Positions 6,482-56,162 of a DNA stretch of 64,000 nucleotides are shown piece by piece. Every line of letters begins with the position of its first letter. Within the stretch, counting starts at the first letter, position 1. The position numbers and the translations under genes are program-made. Under the pieces are notes generated by a model. It did no database searches and was not told the DNA's origin. It saw only the letters and a program-made list of their open reading frames with translations. Source of the DNA: Octopus sinensis (taxonomy: Eukaryota); the NCBI RefSeq assembly GCF_006345805.1, contig NC_043017.1, positions 28,520,001-28,584,000 of the forward strand, written 5' to 3'.

Positions 6482-6994
6482 TTATTATTTTCAGCGTGTA
6501 ACTTCGAGATTCTTCGTTTCCCCGAAGTTCCACTGAGTTGGCGCCTAAATCACATCACGAACTTAGCCGAGTGACTCCTGCAACGGGCTCGGATCGACTA
6601 TTTCTTTGTGATGTATTTTTGAGGGAAACTGTGTGAAAGCCTCTCATATATGAGTTTGATTTTGTGTGTCGGTGTGTCTGTGTGTATGTCTATGTCTCAG
6701 TGTGCGTTTGCATGTGTGTGTGAGAGAAAGAGGAGAGAGAGAAAAAATGAGAGAGAGAAAAGTGTGTGTGTGTGTGTGTGGTTGTGTGTGTGTGTATGTG
6801 TGTGCATGTTTGTACCGGACCACTCGAACAGCAGTGTTAGTTTGTTTACGTACCCGTAAGGCAGCAGATACCGATGAAATGTTCGAGATAAAAACCAAAA
6901 ACCAAAAGCGTAATGGTACCGATTTGTTCGAATAAATCCTTCAATGAAATGCTCCAGAATGGCCACCGTTAAAAGACTTAAATAAATAAAAGTG

Positions 6995-7145
6995 ATTCCG
7001 CGAATTTTGTAATTTTTTTCAAGATTTATACATATGTAGATATCGTCGGTATCTACATATCAAATTTGAGCGCAATCGGATGGAGGATGCCCGAGATCCT
7101 AGAAGACAGACACACAGACGGACAGAACGGATTTTATATAATAGA
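6995..7145 (-). mobile_element. 5' fragment of another non-autonomous Helitron
   Basis: Minus strand TCTATTATATAAAA followed by CTGT microrepeats, like the other Helitron 5' ends. Confidence 0.5.
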
Positions 7146-7591
7146 TAAATAAGAAAGAAGAGCGAAATTGGAAAAAGCGTAAATTCCTTTCTGTTCAGCG
7201 GTGAAATTTAATAAAATAATGAATTATTTTTATATAAAAAAACATTTTCTTAAACATTATTTCTTAATACTTTTTCCATACGTATCACTTTGCTTTCGAT
7301 AGTTGACACTTATGAAGTGTGTATATGTGCGTGAGTACATAGATGTGTTCAGCAACTACTAAATTTTCTTCAGTGTTTGTTACATTTCATTGATTGGAAT
7401 TTGCGTATATGTAGCCAGAGATCTCGGAAGTTTTCTATTTTTGTGACGCCAATAACTCTACGAAATTGTATATTTAGAAATCTTCTGAGATTAAACAATT
7501 TACGGGAAGCATCCGCATAATATTATTGTTAGGTTAATGGTAACGTAACTAAGGTTTGTAAAACATTAAAACGTCAAGTAAAATTATATTG

Positions 7592-7629
<38 letters not shown>

Positions 7630-7658
7630 TTGCATATATATAGATATGTATGTTTATG

Positions 7659-7713
<55 letters not shown>

Positions 7714-7924
7714 ATATATATATGTGTGTATGTGTTAAATGAAGCCTACTCGAAAAAGATGGCAGTGAATTTCGTATTCTGCGTTCCAAAGTTTAGATTC
7801 TGATTCTTCATATTGTTTTGAATATATAAAAATAATTATCACTGTATAATAAAAAAAAAACATCTTCAGTTTATACTAACTAAACATGAATGCATAGAGT
7901 TGTGATAATTTTATCGCTTCCGTC

Positions 7925-8452
7925 CTGTCTATCTATCTATCTATCTATATATATATATCTATATCTATATATATCTATATATATATATATCTATATCTAT
8001 ATCTATATCTATATATATCTATATATATATATCTATATATATATATATCTATATATATCTATATCTATATCTATATCTATATATATCTATATCTATATCT
8101 ATATCTATATATATAATATATCTATATCTATATATATATATATATCTATATCTATATATATATCTATATCTATATCTATATCTATATATATATCTATATC
8201 TATATCTATATAATATATTCTATATCTATATCTATATCTATATATATATCTATATATATATATCTATATATCTATATCTATATCTATATCTATATCTATA
8301 TATATATATTATATCTATATATATCTACTATATATATATCTATATATATATCTATATATATATATCTATATATATATCTATATATATATCATATCTATAT
8401 ATATATCTATCTATATATCTATATATCCTATATATAGATATCTATATATATC

Positions 8453-8490
<38 letters not shown>

Positions 8491-8657
8491 ATCTATATTT
8501 ATATCTATATATATATATCTATATATTATATATCTATATATATATCTATATATATATCTATATATATATCATATATATATTATCTATATATATCTATATT
8601 ATCTATATCTATATATATATATCTATATATATATATCTATACATCTATATCTATATA

Positions 8658-8688
<31 letters not shown>
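7925..8688. repeat. Compound (TA)n/(TATC)n/(TATATC)n microsatellite
   Basis: Direct reading. Confidence 0.95.
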
Positions 8689-8691
<3 letters not shown>

Positions 8692-8915
8692 TTCCCCAAC
8701 AGGACGGGATGCCGGTCCGTCGCAAGATGCAGCAGGAAAAGATTGAGAGAAAGTTGTGGCGAAAGAGTCAGCAGATGTTCGCCATTGCCTTCTTCCGGAG
8801 TCGCATGGAACTTAGGTGTTTTGCTCATGAACACACAAACATCGACTGGTCTGAGATTCGAAGCCGCGATCTCTCGCACGCGAGTCCGCTGCTCTAACCA
8901 CTAGGCCATGCGCCT
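8689..8915 (-). mobile_element. tRNA-derived SINE with OR-type head and a third, distinct tail
   Basis: Head GGCGCATGGCCTAGTGGTTAGAGCAGCGGACTCGCG resembles 2681 and 21694; diverges after ACAACTTTCTCTC. Confidence 0.75.
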
Positions 8916-9560
8916 ACACACACACAAACAGAGACATATGGAGGCATATCTACTCAAACCCAATAAATACACTGCCGTGCATCTATACATTCGTACATGC
9001 TGTGTAATATAGGACAGCTGCGAAGAGAATGAGCATTTTTTGTCCAAAAGTATTGGTAAAGAAAAACCTCACTTGTACTCAATATGAATATTCAAATCTC
9101 GTACTATTGCTACAAGTTTGTATTTGCACCTATTATCGGACATGCACTGTAGAATGAAAGATCCGATTTACATAAAAGTCTCGAAATTCTGTATTTATCC
9201 AAGAGAATTGGCAAACTGACATGCATTGTCGTAGTCCGTTCGATTAGTGGAATTAAATGTTCGTAAAATATTGAATATTCTTAAAGCATTCGAAAGCTTT
9301 CAGAATTACAGACAATCTCATGTGAATGTAGTACACAAGCAAATGCATGCGGATTAATTAAAGTCACGTAAAATTGTCCTAAATGGGCATGCGCATTCAT
9401 TGCAAGAGCGCAAGCATAGATATACATAAATATATGCTGGTCGTTTGACGGAGACACACACACACACACAGTCACACATACACACACTTACAAATACAAG
9501 CACACATACATACTCGTACACAATGTTTCTTCCCAAGAAATAGAGGAAAAAGAAAGAGAG

Positions 9561-12494: not shown

Positions 12495-14304
12495 AATACG
12501 AATCATGAACTTTTAAAGACCACAATTGCTCCTACCCATGTATATATGTTCGTCCTTACATCATGTATGTGCATTGGTGAGTATATTTGTCCCTGTTGGT
12601 ACAATCAGTGAATTAGAAAAAATACTCTGAGGCGTTTCATTTTGATGCTGTTACATTCCTTTCCATCCGAGTGTATTTTAGTTTTCCTTCTTACTAGGTC
12701 ATTGCTTAAACGATAAAATGTTTAAACAAGAAAAACAATCTTAGTGTATTGCCCCAATGTGATTGTTTTCCAATCTTGAAAGAAGCGAGAGGATAAATCA
12801 GAATTAATATTTATACTTACGTATATATAATGAAATGTTTAGCCCATGGATATGACTGAAGGAACTTGAAATGACACTGTAAGATGGGTTGGCCAAGAAT
12901 TTATGTTATTTGCTTGCAAGCAGGTGCACTTTCATTGAAGAAGCGTACGGTGATATATTTAATACAGAAATGAAAATGCAGAGAGAATCGTAAAGAAATT
13001 GATATATATATATATATCGAGAAAGACAATGAGAGAATAGAATGTAAGTGTGACCGAAAAAAGTCAAAGTACAAGGTAACAAAAATATATATATTTATTC
13101 AAAAATAGTTTTAAGTGTGCTACACGGTTTATTGCAGAAACAATAGATGATGGAGTAGATTAGAAGAAAAAGAAGCAGAGGGGGAAAAGATCATCATTTC
13201 CTATCTGCTGCAAGCATTTTGGTCTATTTCGGAGTAGATGTTTTAAAGCTATACTGCAGTATTTCCGTAGCTGTCAAGAATAAGTATCAACTGATAAGGA
13301 AACTTCCTACGATTGTAACACTTTAACGTGAGAGACGATTCTCATCCTGATTTTACTGTGTTTCGGGTTTCAAACGTTATGCTGTATCAATAGCAGAGTA
13401 TCCAAATTAAGTTTGTGTAACTAATGTCAGCGAAATACGATGAAGCCTTATAAAGAAAAGATGGGTAAGTTACATTCATGATTTAACACCGTATTTTGGT
13501 TTTAACAATAAATATGTACCGAAAAGTAAGACACGAAAATTAAGCCATATATACGCACATATATAAATATCTATCATACGTAAATGTTCTAAATTAAACG
13601 AGGACTACGTATATAGAACTATGAACGCAAGTCTGAATAAAATAATTCAATATATATAAATATATACATATACGTACGGGGTGCGGTATATGCATCTGTA
13701 CATGCATGTGTAATATATAGGTGTATGTAGTGTATGTATGCGTATATATCTAACGCTGGTTGGCCGTTTATGTGTAGATTGCGTGCATGAAATCCTTCTC
13801 AGGCAGTCCCTATATGATCTGGTTAGGCCCATACCTTCCCTTGCCGCTATTATGTAAGATTCTGGAACGAAACTCTGTATACATACACATACACACACAC
13901 ACCACACACCGCACACGCACATTAGCCGTCACCGTTTGTCTTCACTGACCTGTTCTTGTTACCACTTTCACCTTCCGAAAAAATTCCAAATTTTATTTAA
14001 TTTACTTTGCGGGAAGGATTATTTCAACGAAGTCACGTATTGTCCTTACCTTCGGAACACAGAGTAGATGAAACAGAGGTAACTGAAGAAGGGGAATATT
14101 CTTTATGTTGCATGTCTCGTTTCTCTGTTTGTTTGTTTTTTTCGTTGTTCGAAAAGAAAGTTCGTTTTCTATGTATTTGTTTTTTATGATTTCGTTTCTC
14201 ACTGTGTTCAACGTTTTTTTTAATGTCCTGTACCCATATATACATGCATATATACAGATTGATATATATATATATATATATATATATTAGATATATATTA
14301 TATA

Positions 14305-14767
<463 letters not shown>

Positions 14768-18802: not shown

Positions 18803-19150
18803 AGGCGGTGAGCTAGCAGAAAGGTGGCGAGCTGGCAGGAACGTTAGCACGCTGGGCGAAATGCCTTGTGGTATTTCGTCCGCCTTGTTCAAGTTCCGCC
18901 GAAGTTGACTTTGCCTTTCATCCTTTCGGGGCCGATAAATTAAGTACCAGTTACGCGCTGGGGTCGATGTAATCGACTTAATCCGTTTGTCTGTCCTTGT
19001 TTGTCTATGTTCAGCCCCTTGTGGGCAATAAAGAAATAAGAAACGTTAGCACGCCGGGCGAAAAGCTTAGTGGTATTTCGTCTCTCTTTACTTTCTGAGT
19101 ACAAAGTCCACCAGCGTCGACTTTGCCTTTTATCCTTTCGAGGTCGATAA
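18803..19150 (+). mobile_element. Nin-domain SINE, full copy plus tandem partial second copy
   Basis: Head GGCGGTGAGCTAGCAGAA; tail AAAGAAATA joined to AGAAACGTTAGCAC of a second unit. Confidence 0.8.
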
Positions 19151-19209
19151 AAGAATTGTAAGAGGAACTTGTGTTGTAGAAAGGAAACAATTAAATCCTT
19201 TATCTTCAG

Positions 19210-19590: not shown

Positions 19591-19814
19591 TGTCATCGCT
19601 ATTATTTTGCGCTATATAACTATTTCTATACTAGGAGCAACATACATCTGTCCATAGCTACGGACCGACCAAAGGATTCTGAGTAGGTTTGGTCAACTAG
19701 CAGAAGACAATCGTATATAATCACACACACACACCACACACACACACACACACATGCATTATCTTGACGACTAACTAACACTCCCTCTCTGGAGTGTTAG
19801 TTAGGGTATATACC

Positions 19815-20974
19815 TATTTCTTTACTACCCACAAGGGGCTAAACACAGAGGGAACAAACAAGGACAGACAGACGGACGGATTAAGTCGATTATATCGACC
19901 CCAGTGAGTAACTGGTACTTAATTTATCGACCCCGAAAGGATGAAGGCAAAGTCGACCTCAGCGGAATTTGAACTCAGAACGTGCGGCAGACGAAATACG
20001 TATTTCTTTCTACCCCACAAGGGGCTAAACACAGAGGGGACAAACAGGACAGACAGACGGACGGATTAAGTCGATTATATCGACCCCGTGAGTAACTGGT
20101 ACTTAATTTATCGACCCCGAAAGGATGAAAGGCAAAGTCGACCTCAGCGGAATTTGAACTCAGAACGTAGCGGCAGACGAAATACGTATTTCTTTACTAC
20201 CCACAAGGGGCTAAACACAGAGGGAACAAACAAGGACAGACAGACGGACGGATTAAGTCGATTATATCGACCCCAGTGAGTAACTGGTACTTAATTTATC
20301 GACCCCGAAAGGATGAAAGGCAAAGTCGACCTCAGCGGAATTTGAACTCAGAACGTAGCGGCAGACGAAATACCTATTTCTTTACTACCCACAAGGGGCT
20401 AAACACAGAGGGAACAAACAAGGACAGACAGACGGACGGATTAAGTCGATTATATCGACCCCAGTGAGTAACTGGTACTTAATTTATCGACCCCGAAAGG
20501 ATGAAAGGCAAAGTCGACCTCAGCGGAATTTGAACTCAGAACGTAGCGGCAGACGAAATACGTATTTCTTTACTACCCACAAGGGGCTAAACACAGAGGG
20601 AACAAACAAGACAGACAGACGGACGGATTAAGTCGATTATATCGACCCCAGTGAGTAACTGTGACTTATTTATCGACCCCGAAAGGATGAAAGGCAAAGT
20701 CGACCTCAGCGGAATTTGAACTCAGAACGTAGCGGCAGACGAAATACCTATTCTTTTACCCACAAGGGGCTAAACACAGAGGGAACAAACAAGGACAGAC
20801 AGACGGACGGATTAAGTCGATTATATCGACCCCAGTGAGTAACTGGTACTTAATTTATCGACCCCGAAAGGATGAAAGGCAAAGTCGACCTCAGCGGAAT
20901 TTGAACTCAGAACGTAACGGCAGACGAAATACGGTTACGCATTTCACCCGGCGTGCTAACGTTTCTGCCAGCTC
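19815..20974 (-). mobile_element. Tandem array of Nin-domain SINE: one head plus six ~188-bp headless units
   Basis: Period 188 (identical ORFs at 20088 and 20276); head only at 20932-20974; ATACC on both flanks. Confidence 0.9.
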
Positions 20975-21693
20975 ATACCTTCAGCCGAAACGTTGTGTTA
21001 ACAACAAACAAGATGAGGACAAATATCCGTTGAAAGTAAATAATGTAAATATAGATGGGTTGACCACATCACGTAATTGAAGTACAACAGATGGACATCA
21101 AAACAATGCACAAGATCATAAGCAGATCGAAGTCAAGATGGTGAGATCATCTGTCCCGCTACATGGGGCCTACATGGTCATGACTTACCTGAAATAGACA
21201 GCGGCTGAAGGAGTCCAGATGTTCCTCCTTCAGGACTGATAAATCCCTGGGGAAATGAAAAGAAATATACTGTAAACAACTGGACAACCTAGAAACGTAT
21301 CGATACAGATATGTACGTATCTACACACGAAATAATTCATTTAAATTATCCACATATATTTGCGTTATTCAACATGTCAATATGCAAAATGACATAGCAT
21401 AAGATTTCAAATCTGAAAGGAATCGTATTTGGAAAAATAAACTTTCTTTTAGAAGAGAAATTGCGAAGAGATATTTGAAAGATAAAATATAAACAACATT
21501 TGTGATAAGATCACTTATGGAATATGTCTTCTATGATATAATTTAAAGATAGGGTATGTTACGCCATATAGAATGAATAGAAGGCGACTGAAAGATTTCC
21601 ACAATTAAACATATATGTAAAACTGCCCGCGGCGTGGCTGGGAGACTGGGAGACTGTGAAGGCTCTATGTTTGAGAAACCTATATTGATAATC

Positions 21694-22870: not shown

Positions 22871-22880
22871 TATACAAGAG

Positions 22881-23112
22881 AACCGGCGAGCTGGCAGAGA
22901 CGTTAGTACGCCGGGCGAAATGCGTAGCCGTATTTCGTCTGTCGTTACATTCCGAGTTCAAATTCCGCCGTGGTCGACTTTGCTTTTCATCCTTTCGGGG
23001 GCGATCAATTAAGTACCAATTATGCACTGGGGTCGATGTAATCGACTTAATCCCTTTGTCTGTCCTTGTTTGTCCCCTCTGTGTTTAGCCCCTTATGGGC
23101 AGTAAAGAAATA
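22881..23112 (+). mobile_element. Nin-domain SINE monomer
   Basis: Full head, core and tail; TATACAAG on both flanks. Confidence 0.9.
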
Positions 23113-24142
23113 TATACAAGTGAACTATATAGGTACGTACCCTCATAAACCCGCACAGAAGAATGAATACACACAAGCATACATACACAGACACATACAC
23201 ACACATACACACACCACACATTCACACACAAGCACACACCAATATATGCTTCATCGTTTGTGTAGATTGATAGTACAGATGGTTCGCTTGGATGTACCTG
23301 ATGAGTAATGTTCCAGTACCTTATTCATCAGGTACCTGGAATTTTCTGCTCGTGAACCGCCGAGTTTGAGTCGAGGGGATGGAACAATTACCATCGGCAT
23401 TTCATCCATCTGTGATTGGTAGACAATGGACTAGTCCAGTTCTGGTGTTATTGGGCTCCTCTTTTCCCCTGCTATCAATTTTCACCCTTGGCTGTGCGTT
23501 TGGAAACATCCCGCTCCGCTCTCGTAGGTGTTCGGCTGGAGCAGGAAGGAATTAGCAAAACACAACGGCTACATGATTTCAACTGTACGTCATCCAACCA
23601 CTTCACACACACACACACACACACACACTTTCATAGCATTATCATCAATCGTCGCGTAGTGAATATAAAAAGGAAAAGAAGTTTCTCCACGCGAGTAGAA
23701 TTATTAGGAACACACGAGGAGTCTGCATTGCAATTTAAGAAAATTTACTTGACAATAATTTATAGAGAAATATTTAATCCGTTTCACAAATTGCTTGTTT
23801 TCAAGAATAATGGTGAGTTTTATCACAGTTATTTTCTCGAAGATTTAACAACGCTTTACATTTCCAAGTGTTAAGCACTTTATTTTGCTGACGTGAAGCG
23901 GTCCGTTAGCTGTTCTGCTATAAGCAAGCTATTATTAGTCCGTTGATGGCGTCATAATTTAATTTGGAAATTTCGATTTTTTGTTTGTTAAAAATATTAT
24001 CGAAGATTTCCAATACTTTAAGATTTCAAATTCTACTTTGTAACCCGTTGCATATCTGAACGAAATGTTGTTATATCTTAGGCAAGTGTATTCTACTAAA
24101 ACCTTGGGCCAACCAAAAGCTGAAAGAATCCCGTTGTATATA

Positions 24143-29502: not shown

Positions 29503-29602
29503 NNNNNNNNNNNNNNNNNNNNNNNNNNNNNNNNNNNNNNNNNNNNNNNNNNNNNNNNNNNNNNNNNNNNNNNNNNNNNNNNNNNNNNNNNNNNNNNNNN
29601 NN
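29503..29602. other. Assembly gap (100 N)
   Basis: Direct reading; true size unknown. Confidence 1.
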
Positions 29603-36385: not shown

Positions 36386-36783
36386 TTCTTTTCTACTCTA
36401 GGCACCAGGCCCGAAATTTTTGAGAAGGGGGCCAGTCGATTAGATCGAAACCAGTATGCAACTGGTAATTAATTTATCGATTCCGAAAGGATGAAAGGCA
36501 AAGTCGACCTCGTCAGATTTTGAACTCAGAACATAGCGGCAGACAAAATACCTATTTCTTTACTAACCACAAGGGGTTAAACACAGAGAGAACAAACAAG
36601 GACAGACAAACGGATTAAGTCGATTATATCGAACCCAGTGCGTAACTGGTACTTATTTAATCAACCCCGAAGGGATGAAAGGCAAATCGACCTCGGCGGC
36701 ATTTGAACTCAGAACGTAGCGGCAGACGAAATACCGCTAAACATTTCGCCTGGCGTGCTAGCGATATTGGCAACTCGCCGCCT
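36386..36783 (-). mobile_element. Nin-domain SINE heterodimer (two different tails)
   Basis: Head plus tail-A unit joined at GAAATAGGTATTT to a unit with tail B; degenerate TSD AGAAC.CCAA.TATATT. Confidence 0.8.
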
Positions 36784-37779: not shown

Positions 37780-38029
37780 TATATGCATATATGAATAGTT
37801 CGAAGAAATAAGAAAGTAACTCAATAGTCGAGAGTGTTGTGCGTTGGCACTCGTTTATCGAACGCATGAAACTCTTGGTCCTTGAGTCACACAGTTACTT
37901 TTGCTAAATATTAATATATATATGTATGTACTCATATTGTGAGTACTATTTTCCCTGTTTCCATTAACATACAAGCATATATACATACATACACACACAC
38001 ACACAATATATATATATACATATATATAC

Positions 38030-40810
38030 ACATATACACATATATAGACATATACATATATATACACATATATAGACATATACATATATATACACATATA
38101 TAGACATATACATATATATACACATATATAGACATATACATATATATACACATATATAGACATATACATATATATACACATATATAGACATATACATATA
38201 TATACACATATATAGACATATACATATATATACACATATATAGACATATACATATATACACATATATAGACATATACATATATATACCATATATAGAATA
38301 TACATATATATGCACATATATAGACATATTACATATAATTACACATATATAGACATATACATATATATACCATTATATATATACATATATATATATATAC
38401 ACATTACACACATATAATATATATATCACACAATACACACATATATATATATAACAACATATACACACACATATAGATTATATACACATATATATATTAT
38501 ATACACACATATATATAATATACACACATATATATACACATATATAAGACACATTATATATACCATTATATATACACATATATAATACACATATATATAT
38601 ACCACCTATATAATATACACATATATATATATAACATATATATATATATATACACATATATATATATATTACACATATATATATATACATATATATATAT
38701 ATACACATATATATCACACATATATATTATATATATATATATACATACACTATATATACACACATATATATATACACATATATATATATAATACACACAA
38801 TATATATATACACACATATATATATATACACACATATATATATATAACACACATATATATATACACACCACATATATATATCACACACAAATATTATATA
38901 CACACACACTTATATATAATATACCACACCATATAATATATACACACACATATAGATATATACACAATATATATATATATACCCAATATATATATATAAC
39001 ACATATATATATACACACATATATATATATATATAACACATATATATATATACACACACATATATATAATACACACATATATATATATATAACACACATA
39101 TATATATATACACACACACATATATATATATATACACATATATATATATAGATATATATATACACACACATATATATATAACACACTATATATATACACA
39201 CACATATATATATATATACACACATATAATATATATATACAAACACACATATATATATACACACCACATATATATATATACCACACACCACATATATACA
39301 TATACACATATATACTATACACATTATATACATATACAATATATATACATATATATCCATATATATACACATATATAACATACAATACACATATATATAA
39401 TATACACATATATATACATATATACAAATACACAATATATACATATATAATATCACATATATATGACATATACAATATATACACAAAAGACATATACATC
39501 ATATACAATATATAGACATACATATATATACACATATATAGACATCTACTCATATGTATATACACATATTATAGACATATACATATAATACACATATATG
39601 ACATATACATATATTACACATATATAGACATATACATATATATACAATATAATATATACTACATATATATATATAAATAGCACAGAATTATATACACACA
39701 TAATATATATATACACACAATATACAAATATATATATATACACGACATATAAACACATATAGCATATATATACACACATATAGTATATATATATTAACAC
39801 ACATATTATATACACATATATATATACACATATATATATACACATAATATTACAACATATAGATATACACAATATAATATATACACACACATAGATATAC
39901 ACATATATATATATATATACCACCATATATATACACACATATATATAAATATATATATATATAACACACATATATAATATACACACATATATATAATACG
40001 GTTACACACAATATATATATATATACACAACATATATATATTACACAAACATATATATATATATACACAACAGAAATATTATATCCACACATATATATAG
40101 AAGATATATACACATCACACATATATATATATATACACACACATATATTAGATCACCACCATATATATACACACATAGACATATATATATCCACACATAT
40201 ATATATATATACACACATATATAATATACACACATATATAGTATAGTACACACATAGTATATATATACACACACATATATATATATCACACATATATATA
40301 ATATACACACACATATATATATATACACACACAATATTATATAAGACACATATATATATATAGACTATATATATATAACACACATTATATAATACACACA
40401 TTATATATATACCACACACAATAATGAATATATATACACACACATATATATATATATACACACACAATTATATTATCACACACATATATATATATATACA
40501 CACACATATATTATACACATACACATATATAATATACACATCTATAATCTATAACACTTACACATATATATACATATACACATATATATACACATATATA
40601 TACATATACACAACTATATATACATATACACATATATATACATATATACATATACACATATATATACAATATATCAATATACACATATAAATATACATAC
40701 TTATAACAATATATATACAATATATCATATATATGACATATATATATATATATAACATATACTATATATATATAATAATACATATACACTATATATATAT
40801 ATGTATACAT
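38030..40810. repeat. 28-bp minisatellite (CACATATATAGACATATACATATATATA)n decaying into a noisy TA/CA tract
   Basis: Clean period 28 from about 38030 to 38285, irregular afterwards. Confidence 0.85.
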
Positions 40811-41601
40811 CTAACACACCATATATATATATACACATACATATATATGCGTATACACACACACACACTCTCACAGATATATATTTATGTGTGTGTTTGT
40901 GTTCTGCAGAAATGCACCTAAGCACCTGCCTACACGGAATCATGTAGATATATATATATATATATATAATATATAATATATATATAATATATATACATAT
41001 ATATATACATATATATATGTATATTTCCAAGTAGTGTTTCTTTTATTTTTACTGACGCCATTCTGCTTTCACAATTTCCTAACATTTATTTTGCAGTGAA
41101 AATAATGGAATTAATAGACACCCTTAATCATTTCGTACTGAGAAGATTCAACGAAAAATCGAATATTAGGAATTTATATATTTTCAGCAAGAGAAATAAA
41201 ATAATCAAATTAATTCAATATACACAGGTTATTATACGACGTACTTTGCTCAACACCATTTTGTTTCCTTCACTAAGGGGGTGGAAAAAAGCATAATAGA
41301 GAATATCCTTTTCAATGAAATGAAAGAATGTATACAATTTTACGTTCACATACATATACATACATACACACATACTCATATATATATATATTATATATAT
41401 ATGTAATATATTATATATGAATAACAAGTAAAAAGTTTGCTATAGGAATGTATTACATAAAATTTTATATTAAACACTATGTTTTTGATATGATGAATAT
41501 TTATTAGAAACATATATTTTTGCACCACTCCCCACCGAAGTTTCATCTATTCTGCTTGAACTTATTTTTTCTGACGCATTCATATATATACATACGTACA
41601 T

Positions 41602-42034: not shown

Positions 42035-43072
42035 TATATATAATTTTCTTATGGTTTCTTAAACATTCTCTAGAACAATACTATGTACAAAACCAAATAT
42101 ATGGCACCCTAGGCATAACACCAACTTCACCCTAGGCATAGCTTCACGTTAAAACTAATGGCCTCGTATCGAAATGTGAAACAATCTTTAAAGGCAATAT
42201 GGCACAATCTTTAGACATATTGGACAAAACTCTTAGTGGCTTTTCGTCCGTCATTGTATCTGAGTCGAAGGAAAATATACCCATCATGCATTGGGGTCGA
42301 TGTAATTCTCTAGCTACTCTCACTAAATTTCGGGACTTGGGAAATTATATATATGTACATACACATGTGTGTATGTGTATGGTGTGTGTGTGTGTGTGTA
42401 TGTGTGTGTGTGTGTGTATGTGTACGAGGATACGTGGTAATTTTCTGATACGTACTGGGGCCAAGAACTCGCTCCTTACCCGCAAATTTAATGCTATTCT
42501 TCCAATTTTAGCAATTTTTTATTATTATTAACGGAAATAATTATTATCATCATCATTATTATTATTATTATCATTATTATTATGATTAATATTATTATTA
42601 TTATTATCATTATTATTATGATTAATATTATTATTATTATTATTATCATTATTATTATTATTACCATTATTATTGTTGTTGTTGTTGTTGTGTTGTTGTT
42701 ATATTTGTGATGAATATCTTTATTGTTGCCATTGATTTTTGTCTTGGTAAAAATGTATTTCGTTCGTTCTCCAGATTAGATTTTTATCGAGTTTTGCAAT
42801 TATTGGATTACTATTTGCGTGTCTTATGGCACCAGAATATTACTCAATGAGGTGGGAATTTCCATTTATCTTTCTTCATTCTCATATTTAAGCAAAAAAT
42901 GACAGTTCGGAAATATTTCCTCCTCCTCTCCAAAGAAAATATTTCCCAAATATCTTTGTACTTTTTCAATTGGTTTTTATCCCCTCTATGGTCCAAAATT
43001 ATTTGTACAGACAATACAAGAAAACTTATAAATTTTATAACGGAAAGCATAAAGATCCGTACACCAATTACC

Positions 43073-44034
43073 TATTTCTTTACTACCCACAAGGGGCTAA
43101 ACACTGAGAGGACAAACAAGGACAGACACACGGATTAAGTCGGTTATATCGACCCCAGTACGTAACTGGTACTTATTTAATCGACCCCGAAAGGATGAAA
43201 GGCAAAGTTGACCTCGGTGGATTTTGAACTACACACTGAGAGGACAAACAAGGACAGACACACGGATTAAGTCGCTTAGATCTACCCCAGTGCGTAACTG
43301 GTACTCATTTAATCGACCCCGAAAGGATGAAAGGCAAAGTCGACCTCGTCGGAATTTGAACTCAGAACGTGACGGCAGACGAAATACCTAATTCTTTACT
43401 AGCCACAAGGGGCTAAACACAGAGAAGACAAACAAGGACAAGCAAACGGATTAGGTAGATTATATCGACCCCAGTGCGTAACTGGTACTTATTTAATCGA
43501 CCCCGAAAAGATGAAAGCAAAGTCGACCTCGGTGGAATTTGAACTCAGAACGTGACGGCAGACGAAATACCTAATTCTTTACTAGCCACAAGGGGCTAAA
43601 CACAGAGAAGACAAACAAGGACAAGCAAACGGATTAGGTAGATTATATCGACCCCAGTGCGTAACTGGTACTCATTTAATCGACCCCGAAAGGATGAAAG
43701 GCAAAGTCGACCTCGTCGGAATTTGAACTCAGAACGTGACGGCAGACGAAATACCTAATTCTTTACTAGCCACAAGGGGCTAAACACAGAGAAGACAAAC
43801 AAGGACAAGCAAACGGATTAGGTAGATTATATCGACCCCAGTGCGTAACTGGTACTCTATTTAATCGACCCCGAAAGGATGAAGGCAAAGTCGACCTCGT
43901 CGGAATTTGAACTCAGAACGTAACGGCAGACGAAATACCTATTCCTTTACTACACACAAGGGGCTAAACACTGAGAGGACAAACATGGACAGACAAACGG
44001 ATTAAGTCAGTTATATCGACACCAGGGCGTAACT
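43073..44034 (-). mobile_element. Headless tandem array of Nin-domain SINE, about 5.5 units of ~184 bp
   Basis: Repeated junction GACGAAATACCTA(T/A)T; 15-bp TSD CGTACACCAATTACC / CATACAACAATTACC. Confidence 0.9.
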
Positions 44035-44449
44035 CATACAACAATTACCATGACACCAAGTACAAGTATAGCACATTATTTCACACACGAAAGTAAGTCT
44101 TGCCTCAGTGAGGAATGTACTTGACTATTTTTCTAGTTTTTCATTCGTTAACTAAGTCCTTTCTCCTAAATCGAGTCATGGCACCTTATTATTTTGATGG
44201 AAACCTTCTTCGTGTATTGACATCCAGTGTCATTGAATTTCTTCTTTGTGGCGATGAATCTTTGAGTCCTATATTAAACTTTGTTCTTTGATTAATGCTT
44301 CCGTGAAGCATTTTACATTTTTATTTAGATATCTTGTTCTGGAATTGCATTCACGTTTTCTGGAGCGTTCCATTCCTTAGCATAACGTTTTTGCTTCCTA
44401 TTCACGTACTTGGACACACACACTCACACACACAGAAGCACGCGCGCGC

Positions 44450-47171: not shown

Positions 47172-47832
47172 ACATGGACACATTGAAACTCCGACGTCTG
47201 GCAGCTGACTTGGCAGACACCCATAAAATTATCAACCATCTTACAAACAATAACTCTGAGCACCTTTTCAAACTCCACCCATCTAACACCCGTGGACATA
47301 TTTACAAAGTCAGAAAACAGCACAGCTCCCATGATTTCAGGAAACATTTTTTAACGCTGAGAGTTGCTGAAGCATGGAACAAACTGCCGGCATCAGTTGT
47401 TAGTTGTCAAGGCGGCGAGCTAGCAGTAACGTTAGCACGCCGGGCGAAATGCGTAACCGCATTTCGTCTGCTGTTACGTTCTGAGTTCAAATTCCGCCGA
47501 GGTTGACTTTGCCTTTCATCCTTTCGGAGTCGATTAAATAAGTACCAGTTACGCACTGGGATCGATATAATCGACATAACCCGTTTGTCTGTCCTTGTTT
47601 GTCCCTTGTGGGTAGTAAAGAAATAGGCATCAGTTGTTAGTTGTCGGAGCACTGCATCCTTCAAAACTTCCATGCTTTCTGAGATTCGCCAACACTACAC
47701 CTGATTTTCTCCCCTACATACACACGCAAGTATGTATCTGACTCATGCATTGTTCGCTTTCTAGACATTTGTACATTACTGCATATACTCTGACAAGTTG
47801 TGGTGCACCTGAGCACTGTATACAATAATTTC
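47172..47832 (+). mobile_element. CR1-like LINE 3' fragment interrupted by a SINE
   Basis: Near-identical to 56272-56730 apart from the insertion. Confidence 0.9.
47409..47626 (+). mobile_element. Nin-domain SINE monomer inserted in the LINE
   Basis: 20-bp TSD GGCATCAGTTGTTAGTTGTC; empty site present in the LINE copy near 56487. Confidence 0.95.
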
Positions 47833-52556: not shown

Positions 52557-52765
52557 TAATGATGATGATGATGATGACGATTATGATGATGACGATGACG
52601 ATGATGGTGGTGGTGGTGGTGGTGATGATGATGACGATTAAGACGATGATGATGACGATTATGGTGGTAGTGGTGGTGATGATGACGACGATGATAACGA
52701 CGACGATGATGACGATGGTGGTGGTGATGATGATGATGATGACGATGATGATGGTGGTGGTGATG

Positions 52766-52797
<32 letters not shown>

Positions 52798-52918
52798 GAC
52801 GATGACGATGGTGATGGTGATGATGATGATGACGATGATGATGGTGGTGGGTGATGATGATGATGACGATGACGGTGATGATGGTGGCGGTGATGACGAT
52901 GATGATAATGATGATGAA
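52557..52918. repeat. (GAT/GAC/GGT)n trinucleotide repeat
   Basis: Direct reading. Confidence 0.95.
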
Positions 52919-54510: not shown

Positions 54511-55500
54511 AGCATCTTATCAAAAATATTAATATGATATTTTGCTGCAATGTCAAACAAATAAGAATTCTCACTCAAAAAATCCATTTAAAATTTAGTT
54601 GAAACAAACACGATATAGCCCAAGGAATCTCCATATTTCAATAATTTTGCATATCATGCAAATAGTATAACCTATTTGAAATAAACTTCTAAATTTTTTT
54701 CAACGTCTTTGCTATTTTTGTTTTAACGCGTAGACCGCAGGAGAATAATGTGTTTAAACGTATCTTTGTTATAAGTAGACAATGTTTAATAGAGCGTGGC
54801 AGATACATGTGAATAGAATAAAGTTGCTCAAAAATCTAGCAATAGACATTACTATATTTATTGCCCGCAAACAATGGGGTGAAATATATAGGTTTATTTA
54901 CAATCAATAAAAAAAGAAATTCATGCAATTACAGAATAATTATTTGTGCGAAGGAGTACATGGCCAATATTTATTAAGGTTCATATTACATGAAACAAAA
55001 CAAGGTAAAAAGAGTAAAAAATAAAGCAATCTTTTGTGACTTAATGTGCATTTAAAACAGGTACTGCTTGGGACAATATAAGCAGCGATACAGAAAGACA
55101 AATTCAAAATGAAAGGAATCTTTGAATACACCGTGAATAATGAAACAGTTCTCAACATAGTTTAGGATGTCAATGCTAATATGTATAGATGTTTGCTGAA
55201 AGGTTTTCGAAACAAGTGAAAATAAAAACAAACAAAAAAAAACTAACAGAAAAAGGACAAAATAAAATATACACTGCAGAAATATCATGTAAATTCTGGT
55301 AGAGAGTGTAATTCTGTGATAGTAACCGCGCAAAGGAAATCGAGATAGAAAAATAAGATGACACAAAATTGCCGCCGGCAGTTGAAGCCATAAAACTAAA
55401 GACAGCTTCGGATGTAATAACATGATGTAAGAATACACTTCACACAAGAGGCACTGTTCTTTTAGAATATGAACCATTCTGTTTCGACATTGCAGATACC

Positions 55501-55917
55501 TATTTCTTTATTACCCACAAGGGGCTAAACACAGAGGGGACAAACAAGGACAGACATAGGTATTAAGTTGATTACATCGCGACCCCAGTGCGTAACTTGT
55601 ACTTAATTTATCGACCCCGAAAGGATGAAAGGCAAAGTCGACCTCGGCGGAATTTGAACTCGGAACGTAACGCAGACGAAATACCCATTTCTTTATTACC
55701 CACAAGGGGCTAAACATAGAAGGGACAAACAAGGACAGACATAGGTATTAAGTCAATTACATCGACCCCAGTGCGTAACTGGTACTTAATTTATCGACCC
55801 CGAAAGGATGAAAGGTAAAGTCGACCTCGGCGGAATTTGAACTCAGAACGTAACGGCAGACGAAATACCGCTAAGCATTTCGCCCGGCGTGCTAACGTTT
55901 CTGCCAGCTCGCCGCCT
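55501..55917 (-). mobile_element. Nin-domain SINE dimer (head plus two units)
   Basis: Perfect 14-bp TSD ACATTGCAGATACC at 55487-55500 and 55918-55931. Confidence 0.92.
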
Positions 55918-56162
55918 ACATTGCAGATACCACTTATGAAATAGTTCTTCTAAGGTTTTGGAAGAACCATTGTGTTTAGCTATATGGTAAGTGTTATACA
56001 TTACAGATGTTACATTATACGATTGTTTCGCAGGGAAATTTCTAAATGCAACCAATCGACGTATCAGAGTAATACGAAAGGAAGATGTAAGGGAATAAAT
56101 GAAGATTCTGGGGTTCATTGGTGTGTTAAACACGACCATATTCAGGTTCTTGGTGGTGATAT

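What the first reader, a model, noticed from the sequence alone, without database searches (positions are those of the whole stretch)
19815..20974. Rolling SINE: head plus six headless units with a fixed, self-complementary junction
Seen: on the SINE strand the 3' end ..GGTAGTAAAGAAATA(G/C) is always rejoined to GTATTTCGTCTGCC, about 45-50 nt into the head. The same junction recurs at four independent loci (19.8, 36.5, 43, 55.7 kb). The two joined ends are complementary (TATTTC..CTGCC vs GGTAG..GAAATA), so the RNA 3' end can pair at the re-entry point. Units here share private variants (GACGGACGG, GTGAGTAAC, CTCAGCGG) absent from the other arrays. Inference: multimers arise during retrotransposition by iterative RT re-entry on one looped or circular RNA, a route from SINE to satellite; ordinary unequal crossover would not give one junction at unlinked sites.
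Basis: partly seen in the sequence, partly recalled or inferred. Interest (0 to 1): 0.75.

Follow-up and report, generated by a model that had tools for sequence, protein, structure and literature searches.

The report
SINE tandem arrays with fixed junction
A short mobile element in this animal genome is strung head-to-tail into arrays through one fixed joint that recurs more than 11,000 times; the joint is likely made during reverse transcription, and this array was likely then enlarged by ordinary DNA recombination, not by copying a circular RNA.

Summary
Window 19815-20974 (minus strand) is a 41-nt head fragment plus six ~186-nt units. Each joint links the element's 3' end (..AAAGAAATA-G/C) to GTATTTCG at element position 49. 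The same joint occurs at three other window loci and 11,105 times as an exact 30-mer genome-wide.

The "one looped or circular RNA" reading is not supported:
- Units of short arrays often come from different subfamilies.
- Long arrays show nested, higher-order duplication patterns.
- The focal array's combination of private variants occurs nowhere else in the 2.7-Gb assembly, which points to amplification on the spot.

New findings:
- The joint coincides with a 5-7 nt identity (GGTATTT) between what follows the "T-type" tail and positions 48-54.
- A second tail lineage ("C-type", followed by AGAAAC) makes a second joint at position 16.
- Other SINE tails never act as the upstream partner.

Best model, two steps, both inferred:
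1. Joints are seeded during LINE-mediated reverse transcription by microhomology-guided template jumps between SINE RNAs.
2. Arrays then grow by unequal crossing-over.

Descent from multimeric master copies is not excluded. This is a new, very abundant member of a known kind, SINE-derived tandem arrays.

The parts
20933..20974 (-). 5'-truncated head of the SINE (element positions 8-48). It holds the A-box-like stretch and the 5' strand (GAAATGC) of a hairpin whose 3' strand is GTATTTCG.
19815..20932 (-). Six tandem units of 184-188 nt (element 49-231), starting at 20932, 20747, 20561, 20373, 20185 and 19999. Each carries the B-box-like GAGTTCAAATTCC and a complete 3' tail. Joint bases are G, C, G, C, C.
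19810..19814 (-). GGTAT directly after the last ..AAATA. The same GGTAT lies directly 5' of the head at 20975-20979, so this may be a 5-nt target-site duplication. It equals element positions 48-52.
55487..55931 (-). Dimer (1-232 | 49-231) flanked by the 14-nt TSD GGTATCTGCAATGT (55487-55500 and 55918-55931).
43060..44049 (-). 5'-truncated array: 133-231, then four units from position 49, then 75-231 after an internal deletion. It is flanked by a 13-nt TSD with 1 mismatch. The three central units share variants that the edge units lack.
36434..36783 (-). Heterodimer: a full A-family element joined at position 49 to a headless unit that ends in a different (B') tail.
18822..19151 (+). Second joint class (J16): a C-type tail ..GGGCAATAAAGAAATA joined to AGAAACGTTAGC at element position 16 of another SINE.
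47389..47645 (+). Solitary T-type element with the 20-nt TSD GGCATCAGTTGTTAGTTGTC. It serves as the reference for the monomer ends.
22871..23120 (+). Solitary C-type element. Its TSD starts TATACAAG, matching the LINE-like TA-start signature.

Best explanation
The array is a genuine head-plus-six-unit tandem of a very abundant SINE, and its fixed joint is a genome-wide property of the family. The joint is likely seeded during LINE-mediated reverse transcription, and this array was likely then enlarged at the locus by unequal crossing-over.

Shown:
- The element's T-type tail is followed by GGTA(TTT), which is identical to element positions 48-54.
- The joint sits exactly on that identity.
- A second tail lineage, followed by AGAAAC (= positions 15-20), makes a joint at position 16.
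- Tails of two other SINE families with the same body were never the upstream partner of a position-49 joint.

Inferred, step 1 (seeding): a cDNA being copied from any SINE RNA of this superfamily reaches position 48-54. Its 3' end (..AAATACC) then pairs with the GGUAU(UU) 3' extension of a T-type RNA, just as a nicked target does, and reverse transcription continues on that second RNA. This places several units, often from different subfamilies, inside one target-site duplication.

Inferred, step 2 (growth): once two units lie in tandem, unequal crossing-over or gene conversion expands and homogenises them. The focal array is such a product. All six units share a variant combination that exists nowhere else in the assembly.

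My odds: about 0.75 that the focal array grew at the locus, and about 0.85 that one looped or circular RNA is not the general route.
For: Family-wide joint:
- 11,105 exact 30-mers against 0 for the reversed control.
- In an unbiased 664 kb (60 random 10-kb stretches plus the window), 22 of 47 A-family tails are followed by another SINE unit: 18 at position 49 and 4 at position 16.
- 15 of 33 tail-bearing loci are composites (my count).

Tail lineage dictates the joint:
- T-type tails: 123 position-49 joints, 0 position-16 joints. C-type tails: 2 and 9.
- Free T-type ends are followed by GG in 21 of 38 cases against 0 of 15 for C-type (Fisher p=1e-4). AG follows in 1 of 38 against 6 of 15 (p=0.0013).
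- Genome-wide exact 23-mers: T+GGTA 41,134; T+AGAA 1,127; C+GGTA 2,516; C+AGAA 2,516.

Upstream-partner specificity: 0 of 32 B' tails and 0 of 31 B tails are followed by a position-49 joint. B'-tailed units are the downstream partner in 12 cases.

GGTA lies in both TSD copies in 11 of 13 T-type cases where a TSD was found (my count). This suggests the RNA's 3' extension pairs with the target.

TSDs flank whole arrays: found in 25 of 44 loci against 4 of 216 mismatched flank pairs; at the stricter score 23 of 44 against 0 of 216. 14 of 24 multi-unit arrays have one (my count). Six of 12 composites inspected by eye also have one, all six ending in a B' tail.

Mixed origin of units: dimer discordance 0.289 against 0.349 for random pairs; the linked marker 126/129 is discordant in 5 of 18 dimers.

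Growth at the locus:
- Period-3 and period-2 higher-order patterns and two-block arrays (L064, L063, L066, L068).
- Many variants shared by subsets of units.
- A dimer plus 123 bp of flank repeated three times (L073).
- The focal array's variant combination is unique.

A LINE-like family has a 3' end matching the SINE tail at 36 of 44 positions (my count). Its copies are variably 5'-truncated and one carries a zf-RVT domain.
Against: - No template jump was observed. The RNA's 3' extension is inferred from DNA flanks only.
- Descent from composite masters would give the same tail-to-joint linkage. Downstream B' units share one chimeric marker pattern in 9 of 12 cases, which could mean a composite family propagated as a unit.
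- The joint base is G in 115 of 123 joints, while head position 48 is G in only 52 of 89 heads. So the joint base is not simply copied from the donor.
- C joints occur only in arrays whose head has C at position 48 (3 of 3 arrays). That hints at some exchange within the same molecule or locus that the model does not predict.
- Rare-variant loads of first and last units are not correlated (rho 0.18, p=0.37). First units tend to carry fewer rare variants (17 against 9, Wilcoxon p=0.24). Neither result discriminates between models.
- The source copy of the focal array could be lost or unassembled.
- Array copy number rests on one long-read assembly; contigs of public runs could not bridge it.
- Loci L061-L100 were chosen through the exact joint, so only the L001-L060 and window figures are unbiased.
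Confidence: 0.4

Rival explanations
1. Descent from multimeric masters. The position-49 and position-16 joints each arose once or a few times. Head-bearing composites are transcribed through all units, since no TTTT run lies inside a unit. They are then retrotransposed as a whole, with reverse transcription starting at any unit's tail and with 5' truncation. The GGTA and AGAA found after solitary tails would be remnants of the next unit. Mixed arrays would come from recombination or copy-choice between homologous units, and arrays would again grow at the locus.
For: - Both tail lineages are followed by a sequence equal to an internal SINE site. This is what read-through into a next unit would give.
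- The unit consensus has no TTTT (sequence).
- The same three-part architecture (A | A | position-16 unit) occurs at three loci (L027 twice, L029).
- Downstream B' units share the pattern 'A-like at 62/64, B'-like from 142' in 9 of 12 cases.
- 5'-truncated arrays with a TSD exist.
Against: - Downstream partners of both joints are diverse: A T-type, A C-type, B, B' and diverged copies.
- Subfamily markers show no position-specific pattern. The TA allele at 126/129 is present in about 5 of 18 first units and 4-5 of 18 second units (my count).
- The three look-alike trimers have different haplotype pairs.
- No near-identical sibling of a mixed dimer was found. The best full-length match was 95% among the 40 scored candidates out of 2,748. 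The family is old, so this is weak evidence.
Confidence: 0.25
2. Nested self-targeting. T-type RNAs are primed at a nick at GGTAT (positions 48-52) inside a resident SINE. The 5' end of the new cDNA is then resolved by annealing to the resident head. Each event would add one headless unit between head and body without a new TSD.
For: - T-type elements choose GGTA-starting targets.
- They do insert into resident SINE copies. Three independent antisense insertions lie at the same GGTACTTAATTTATCG site with normal TSDs (L036, L037, L071).
- First units tend to carry fewer rare variants than last units (17 against 9).
Against: - None of the composite loci listed shows the ordinary nested form (1-~63 | 1-231 | 49-..), although antisense nested insertions do keep ordinary TSDs.
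- The age trend is not significant (p=0.24).
- Arrays whose first unit starts beyond position 49, yet have a TSD (43060-44049), cannot begin this way.
Confidence: 0.15
3. Purely DNA-level origin. Every T-type monomer carries a 4-7 nt direct repeat, GGTA(TTT), at positions 48-54 and again just after its tail. Replication slippage or microhomology-mediated duplication between these repeats creates the first joint, and unequal crossover does the rest.
For: - It gives exactly the observed joint.
- It explains same-source dimers and the focal array: all six units, including the head-attached one, share the private variants and no source copy exists elsewhere.
- The focal flank starts GGTAT.
Against: - It cannot give mixed dimers (5 of 18 discordant at the linked marker).
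- It cannot give A|B' composites (12 cases).
- It cannot give position-16 joints whose downstream unit is another family (8 of 9 by my reading).
- Forty-seven percent of tails being joined would need an implausibly high rate for 5-7 nt of homology.
Confidence: 0.1
4. One SINE RNA, looped by pairing of its 3' end with the re-entry site or circularised, is copied round and round by the reverse transcriptase. The whole array would be born in one retrotransposition event.
For: - In a headless 184-nt RNA the two ends are predicted to pair (36 of 40).
- C joints occur only in arrays whose own head has C at position 48 (3 of 3 arrays), as if position 48 of the same molecule were sometimes copied before the jump.
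- The focal array's units are all one lineage.
Against: - In full-length RNA the pairing is not predicted (0 of 40).
- Units of dimers are nearly as unlike as random pairs.
- Long arrays have nested and higher-order structure, not a star.
- Head-attached and terminal units usually differ from the inner ones.
- No source copy carries the focal array's variant combination.
- The position-16 joint class follows the same short-identity rule at a different site, so the GAAATA/TATTTC pairing does not explain it.
Confidence: 0.05

Closest known systems
TSD1-(SINE)n-TSD1 tandem arrays of HCD-SINEs in the blood clam Scapharca broughtonii (PMC11481361; passages read)
   Same: [quoted passage not shown] Both are in molluscs.
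   Different: In the clam, the first and inner units are also truncated in the 3' tail, and about 3% of high-scoring SINEs are involved. Here tails are complete and 22 of 47 tails are joined. That paper attributes its arrays to unequal homologous recombination. It does not report, in the passages I read, a tail-lineage-specific joint or mixed-family composites with a fixed joint.
SINE-derived satellites (sSats) of squamate reptiles (PMC10702118; abstract and passages read)
   Same: Tandem repeats whose unit is a portion of a SINE, with primordial SINE sequence at array ends. Some arrays show alternating dimer or trimer patterns. Both are proposed as a route from SINE to satellite.
   Different: sSat variants arise independently with different unit boundaries in different taxa. 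The initial duplication is ascribed to unequal homologous recombination or repeated insertion. Here there is one boundary, over 11,000 exact copies, linked to a short identity and a tail lineage.
Chimeric retrocopies made by LINE RT template jumps or by RNA ligation: U6/L1 chimeras and RtcB (PMC6789731, abstract read); tripartite chimeras in Magnaporthe (PMC2104539, search listing only); R2 end-to-end template jumping (recalled, not read)
   Same: Two or more RNAs are copied into one insertion within a single TSD. The upstream partner is a defined RNA end.
   Different: In those chimeras the downstream partner is truncated at variable positions. Here it starts at one fixed position that shares 5-7 nt with the upstream RNA's 3' extension, and the products are self-similar, so they can seed tandem arrays.
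RTE-related SINE/LINE insertion signature, in which the first TSD nucleotide correlates with the 3' microsatellite-like end (PMC6007223; abstract read)
   Same: The RNA's extreme 3' sequence appears to influence where priming occurs. Here T-type elements land on GGTA.., C-type on AGA/AGG.., and the LINE-like family on TA...
   Different: Here the steering sequence lies beyond the LINE-derived tail, differs between two SINE lineages, and equals internal SINE sites. The LINE clade here is not determined; only a zf-RVT hit was found.
Dimeric SINEs propagated as units (such as Alu) and jerboa Dip/B1 multimers (both as mentioned in PMC10702118); octopus OK/OR SINEs (recalled only, not compared)
   Same: SINE units joined head-to-tail, with some propagated as composites.
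   Different: Those multimers consist of full-length elements. Here all but the first unit lack the head and cannot carry the full internal promoter.

Membership tests
SINE (non-autonomous, LINE-dependent retroposon) | Short, non-coding, very high copy number | tested here: met
   The element is 231-232 nt. There are 41,134 exact 23-mer tail-plus-GGTA matches and 11,105 exact joints.
SINE (non-autonomous, LINE-dependent retroposon) | Head derived from a small pol III RNA (tRNA) with A and B boxes | tested here: inconclusive
   ARAGORN found 0 tRNAs in the window. Rfam found 0 matches at E<=1 in 19700-21100. Only box-like motifs are seen by eye (TTAGCACGCCGGG in the head, GAGTTCAAATTCC in the unit). 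The box consensus is recalled, not tested.
SINE (non-autonomous, LINE-dependent retroposon) | 3' tail shared with a partner LINE | tested here: met
   A repeat family with a common 3' end and variable 5' truncation includes one copy with zf-RVT PF13966 (E=3.5e-8). Its last 44 nt match the SINE tail at 36 of 44 positions (my count). No RT catalytic domain was found in the two longer copies fetched.
SINE (non-autonomous, LINE-dependent retroposon) | Target-site duplications | tested here: met
   Found in 25 of 44 loci against 4 of 216 mismatched flank pairs.
SINE-derived tandem array / satellite (TSD1-(SINE)n-TSD1 type) | Head only on the first unit, headless inner units, one TSD around the whole array | tested here: met
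   Architectures are listed. TSDs surround 14 of 24 multi-unit arrays (my count) and 6 of the 12 composites inspected by eye, all six ending in a B' tail. For the focal array only a 5-nt GGTAT repeat is seen.
SINE-derived tandem array / satellite (TSD1-(SINE)n-TSD1 type) | Long homogenised satellite blocks (hundreds of units, chromosomal domains) | not tested
   The largest array fetched has 10 units (L063, L064). No genome-wide length survey was possible with the tools' listing limit.
Product of rolling reverse transcription on one looped or circular RNA | All units identical at birth, giving a star-like relation among units | tested here: not met
   Long arrays show subset-shared rare variants and higher-order patterns. 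Dimer units are discordant at 28.9% of diagnostic sites against 34.9% for random pairs.
Product of rolling reverse transcription on one looped or circular RNA | A source gene carrying the array's shared variants | tested here: not met
   The focal combination was found only in the array. The one other CCGTCCGTC locus lacks the other variants. Near-matches within 2 mismatches are mostly a different slippage variant. A lost or unassembled source cannot be excluded.
Product of rolling reverse transcription on one looped or circular RNA | RNA 3' end pairs at the re-entry point; circular RNA exists | tested here: inconclusive
   Pairing is predicted in headless RNA (36 of 40) but not in full-length RNA (0 of 40). 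Circles are not testable here, because the joint exists in DNA tens of thousands of times.
Composite SINE propagated as a unit (Alu-like) | Constant architecture with position-specific diagnostic differences and sibling copies | tested here: inconclusive
   Nine of 12 downstream B' units share one chimeric pattern. Against this, there is no position-specific marker in A|A dimers and no sibling above 95% identity.

The most novel reading that the evidence does not exclude
Two SINE lineages each carry a short 3' extension beyond the LINE-derived tail: GGUAUUU and AGAAAC. The extension is inherited through the flank each copy lands in. It steers priming both to matching genomic targets and to the matching internal site of sibling SINE cDNAs. 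Reverse transcription would therefore concatenate SINE RNAs at a fixed register and seed, by extrapolation from 18 joints in 664 kb, roughly 70,000 proto-satellite joints genome-wide. DNA recombination would then grow these into arrays. This would be a retrotransposition-coupled, self-reinforcing route from SINE to satellite.
Probability: 0.35. Interest if true: 0.7.

Novelty: new member of a known kind. Interest (0 to 1): 0.5.

Why it matters
How dispersed mobile elements turn into tandem satellites is an open question, and the first duplication is usually just assumed. Here nearly half of a SINE family's copies are already joined at one register. The register is tied to a 5-7 nt identity and to a tail lineage, and both short mixed composites and long homogenised arrays are present. 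That makes the seeding step and the growth step separately testable in one genome, using population long reads, sister-species loci and an RT assay. For annotation, it also means these loci should be modelled as head plus n units, not as fragmented SINE hits.

Tried and rejected
- Reads: contigs of four public runs laid on 19600-21150 were swamped by the repeat. Only the single-copy flanks were cleanly covered, in X1 and X2. No contig bridged the array, so copy number and polymorphism remain unverified.
- tRNA origin: ARAGORN and Rfam gave nothing.
- Earlier scan notes: three look-ups returned nothing.
- Literature: searches on octopus/cephalopod SINE tandem repeats and three sequence strings found no description of this array type in cephalopods. 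In the two genome papers I read only term-match passages. In one search these were mostly 'sinensis' or tandem gene duplication. The passages shown held no mention of SINE arrays. Subscription papers, including the 1990s octopus SINE papers I recall, were not searchable.
- Sibling search: a mixed dimer (L056) has no near-identical full-length copy. The best is 95%, because the family is old.
- Age tests: first against last unit rare-variant load (Wilcoxon p=0.24) and their correlation (rho 0.18, p=0.37) do not discriminate between models.
- Partner LINE: ORFs upstream of the tail-like 3' ends in L025 and L032 gave no Pfam hit. In the two longer copies only zf-RVT was found, so the clade is undetermined.
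- The single C15 locus sharing the CCGTCCGTC variant was considered as the array's source and rejected. It is a solitary element with its own 21-nt TSD and lacks the other variants.
Full report
**1. What is there**

TRF reports a 188-bp period with 6.0 copies at 96% match across 19810-20933. Read on the minus strand, the locus has this order:
- 5' flank ..GAAGGTAT.
- A head fragment at 20974-20933, starting GAGCTGGCAG.
- Six units starting with GTATTTCGTCTGCC at 20932, 20747, 20561, 20373, 20185 and 19999.
- The end ..GGGTAGTAAAGAAATA at 19815, followed by GGTATATACCC.

A full-length reference element of 232 nt was taken from the dimer at 55.5-55.9 kb. Measured against it, the head fragment covers positions 8-48, each unit covers positions 49-231, and each joint is 231 -> 49. 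The joint base is G, C, G, C, C from the 5' end. The six units differ mostly by single-unit changes, many of them 1-nt indels. The head-attached unit differs from the other five at one shared site.

**2. It is not chance, and it is family-wide**

The same joint is found in the window at 36434-36783, 43074-44039 and 55502-55917. The exact 30-mer across the joint occurs 11,105 times in the 2.72-Gb assembly, and the reversed control occurs 0 times.

I fetched 60 arbitrary 10-kb stretches. Together with the window this gives 664 kb of unbiased sequence:
- 47 tails of this "A" family were found: 25 end in flank, 18 are joined to position 49 of another unit, and 4 are joined to position 16.
- By my count, 15 of 33 tail-bearing loci are composites.
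- Solitary 5'-truncated copies start at scattered positions (70, 77, 190 and others), so the fixed start at 49 is not ordinary truncation.

A further 40 loci were fetched through the exact joint on one contig. They are biased toward this joint, and I use them only for anatomy.

**3. What the element is**

The element is short and non-coding. Evidence that it is a LINE-dependent retroposon:
- Target-site duplications are found in 25 of 44 loci. Mismatched flank pairs give 4 of 216. At the stricter score the figures are 23 of 44 against 0 of 216.
- Its last 44 nt resemble the common 3' end of a repeat family whose copies are variably 5'-truncated. The match is 36 of 44 positions by my count.
- One copy of that family encodes a zf-RVT domain.

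I could not confirm a tRNA origin. The A- and B-box resemblance is by eye, against a recalled consensus. The unit holds the B-box-like motif and the head holds the A-box-like motif. Headless units would therefore lack a full internal promoter (inference). The unit consensus contains no TTTT, so a head-bearing array could be transcribed through by pol III (inference from recalled terminator rules).

Other SINE families here share positions 1-167 but end in other tails, which I call B' (..GCCTTGTGCCTAGAGTAGAAAAGAAT) and B (..CCAAAATTTGAAACC(ATT)n).

**4. The key regularity**

The A tail comes in two lineages: T-type (GGGTA.TAAAGAAATA) and C-type (GGGCA.TAAAGAAATA).

| Tail lineage | Position-49 joints | Position-16 joints |
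|---|---|---|
| T-type | 123 | 0 |
| C-type | 2 | 9 |

(One further position-49 joint follows a tail that is neither T- nor C-type.)

Where the tails end in flank, the first bases also differ by lineage:
- T-type flanks start GG in 21 of 38 cases, C-type in 0 of 15 (p=1e-4).
- C-type flanks start AG in 6 of 15 cases, T-type in 1 of 38 (p=0.0013).
- Matches to GGTATTTCG run up to 7 nt, and matches to AGAAACG up to 6 nt.

Genome-wide exact 23-mers give the same picture:

| Tail | followed by GGTA | followed by AGAA |
|---|---|---|
| T-type | 41,134 | 1,127 |
| C-type | 2,516 | 2,516 |

GGTATTT equals element positions 48-54, and AGAAAC equals positions 15-20. So each lineage's joint sits on a short identity between what follows its tail and an internal site.

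In 11 of 13 T-type cases with a detected TSD, the GGT(A) is inside both TSD copies (my count). It therefore belongs to the target. The LINE-like family itself lands on TA-starting sites in 10 of 11 flanks, and the eleventh starts TTA. I infer that the co-transcribed first bases of the flank act as a 3' extension that pairs with the primer. Each lineage would inherit its preference through the sites it lands in. A related correlation is published for RTE-related elements (PMC6007223, abstract).

**5. Direction and partners**

B' and B tails were never followed by a position-49 joint (0 of 32 and 0 of 31). B'-tailed units are nevertheless the downstream partner in 12 composites. Downstream partners of the position-16 joint belong to several families. 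Symmetrical homologous recombination does not predict this asymmetry.

Whole composites sit inside one TSD:
- Examples include dimers, trimers, a pentamer and a heptamer (L056, L067, L070, L066, L076, L091, and window 55487-55931).
- Six of 12 composites inspected by eye, all six ending in a B' tail, also do.
- The array at 43060-44049 begins mid-unit (position 133) and still has a 13-nt TSD. A multi-unit cDNA or RNA therefore existed at integration, or a truncated dimer grew later.

**6. Why not one looped or circular RNA**

- Mixed units. At 16 subfamily-diagnostic sites, the two units of dimers are discordant at 28.9% of sites, against 34.9% for random pairs from different loci (19 dimers). 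A marker made of two linked changes (126/129) is discordant in 5 of 18 dimers by my count, against about 45% expected for random pairing. Roughly 60% of dimers would then combine two source lineages. Many longer arrays are mosaics, and their head-attached and terminal units usually differ from the inner ones.
- Long arrays are not star-like:
  - L064 repeats a three-unit block (u3u4u5 resembles u6u7u8).
  - L063 repeats a two-unit block.
  - In L066, units u2, u6 and u7 share three rare variants that u3-u5 lack.
  - L068 consists of two internally uniform blocks.
  - In L073, a dimer plus 123 bp of non-SINE flank is itself repeated three times. Reverse transcription of a SINE cannot do that.
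- No source for the focal array. Its units share ACTCAC, CCGTCCGTC and CCGCTGAGG.
  - The first two together occur only in this array.
  - CCGTCCGTC has one other exact locus, a solitary element with its own TSD and none of the other variants.
  - Searching with 2 mismatches finds mostly a different slippage variant.
  - ACTCAC alone is a recurrent variant, seen 694 times.
  - The simplest reading is that the variants arose in a resident unit, which was then amplified at the locus. A lost or unassembled source remains possible.
- RNA pairing. The 3' GAAAUA pairs with UAUUUC only in a headless RNA (36 of 40). In full-length RNA it pairs in 0 of 40, because UAUUUC is the 3' strand of a 9-bp hairpin with the head's GAAAUG.
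- The position-16 joint follows the same short-identity rule at a different site, so the GAAATA/TATTTC pairing does not account for it.

**7. Mechanism I commit to (inferred)**

*Seeding.* Target-primed reverse transcription starts on any SINE RNA of the superfamily. When the cDNA has copied down to positions 48-54, its end ..AAATACC-3' looks like a GGTAT-type nicked target. It pairs with the GGUAU(UU) extension of a T-type RNA, and synthesis continues on that RNA, possibly several times. The last template may be copied to its 5' end or truncated. C-type RNAs do the same at AGAAAC. Template jumping by non-LTR reverse transcriptases is established knowledge that I recall but did not read. Chimeric retrocopies are documented in PMC6789731 (abstract) and PMC2104539 (search listing only).

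*Growth.* Tandem units then undergo unequal crossing-over and conversion. This gives homogeneous cores, higher-order blocks and divergent edges.

For the focal array I put about 0.75 on growth at the locus. Its founder could even have been a monomer duplicated between the GTAT at position 49 and the GTAT of its flank.

**8. What stays open**

- Descent from multimeric masters explains the tail-to-joint linkage equally well. It gains support from the shared chimeric pattern of downstream B' units (9 of 12). No sibling copies could be resolved, because the family is about 5-8% diverged.
- Nested insertion at the internal GGTAT is plausible, because T-type elements do insert into resident SINEs at a GGTAC site in antisense (L036, L037, L071). 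But no ordinary nested sense insertion is seen at position 48.
- The joint base is G in 115 of 123 joints, although head position 48 is G in only 52 of 89 heads. The five C joints all lie in the three arrays whose own head has C at position 48. I cannot explain that association.
- Unit-age comparisons were uninformative.
- Read data could not verify copy number.

**9. Comparison and novelty**

The architecture (head on the first unit, headless inner units, one TSD) has been described for a clam SINE (PMC11481361, passages). SINE-derived satellites are described in squamates (PMC10702118). My searches found no report for cephalopods, but subscription literature was not searchable.

What is new here:
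- The scale: nearly half of all tails are joined.
- The fixed register tied to a 5-7 nt identity.
- The two tail lineages with two registers.
- The one-sided partner rule.

I file this as a new member of a known kind, with a mechanistic lead worth testing.

Noticed in passing
window 19771-19804: A perfect 14-nt inverted repeat (CTAACTAACACTCC .. GGAGTGTTAGTTAG) lies 6 nt beyond the 3' end of the focal array, next to a (CA)n run at 19722-19754.
   Followed up: no
L036:2475-2832, L037:6136-6424, L071:2076-2295 (also L099:805-1039): T-type elements are inserted in antisense into resident SINE copies at the same site, with TSD GGTACTTAATTTATCG... This is a recurrent nested-insertion hotspot with ordinary TSDs.
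   Followed up: partly
L073:856-2526: A SINE dimer plus about 123 bp of non-SINE flank is repeated three times in tandem (period ~537 bp). The same flank, GGTAACTCGAATAATTGAG, follows each copy.
   Followed up: partly
L032:~6500-9270, L025:~9321, L103-L115: A LINE-like family has a common 3' end ..TTCAGCCCTGTGTGGCCAATAAAGAAACA and variable 5' truncation. 10 of 11 flanks start TA. One copy carries a zf-RVT domain. It is a likely partner or relative of the partner of the SINE; the clade is not determined.
   Followed up: partly
L011:4194-4400 (minus strand): The last ~41 nt of the A tail (ending ..AAAGAAACAGGTAT) are attached to the body of a different repeat (..GACTGCAGCCATGCTGGAGCACC..). This is either another SINE family using the same tail or a chimera.
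   Followed up: no
window 38006-40848; 14256-14767; 52559-52917; 29503-29602: The window also holds a 2.8-kb AT-rich microsatellite (18-nt period), a 0.5-kb (AGAT)n, a 0.36-kb (ATG)n and a 100-N assembly gap.
   Followed up: no
genome-wide: The GTCT stretch of the SINE tail region (CCGTTTGTCTGTCC) has repeatedly gained 4 nt (CCGTCTGTCTGTCTGTCC) at many independent loci. It is a slippage-prone site, so this 'private variant' class is recurrent.
   Followed up: partly
arrays in the window (focal), L078 and L079: The rare C at the joint occurs only where the array's own head has C at position 48 (3 of 3 arrays, 5 joints). About a quarter of heads carry C.
   Followed up: partly
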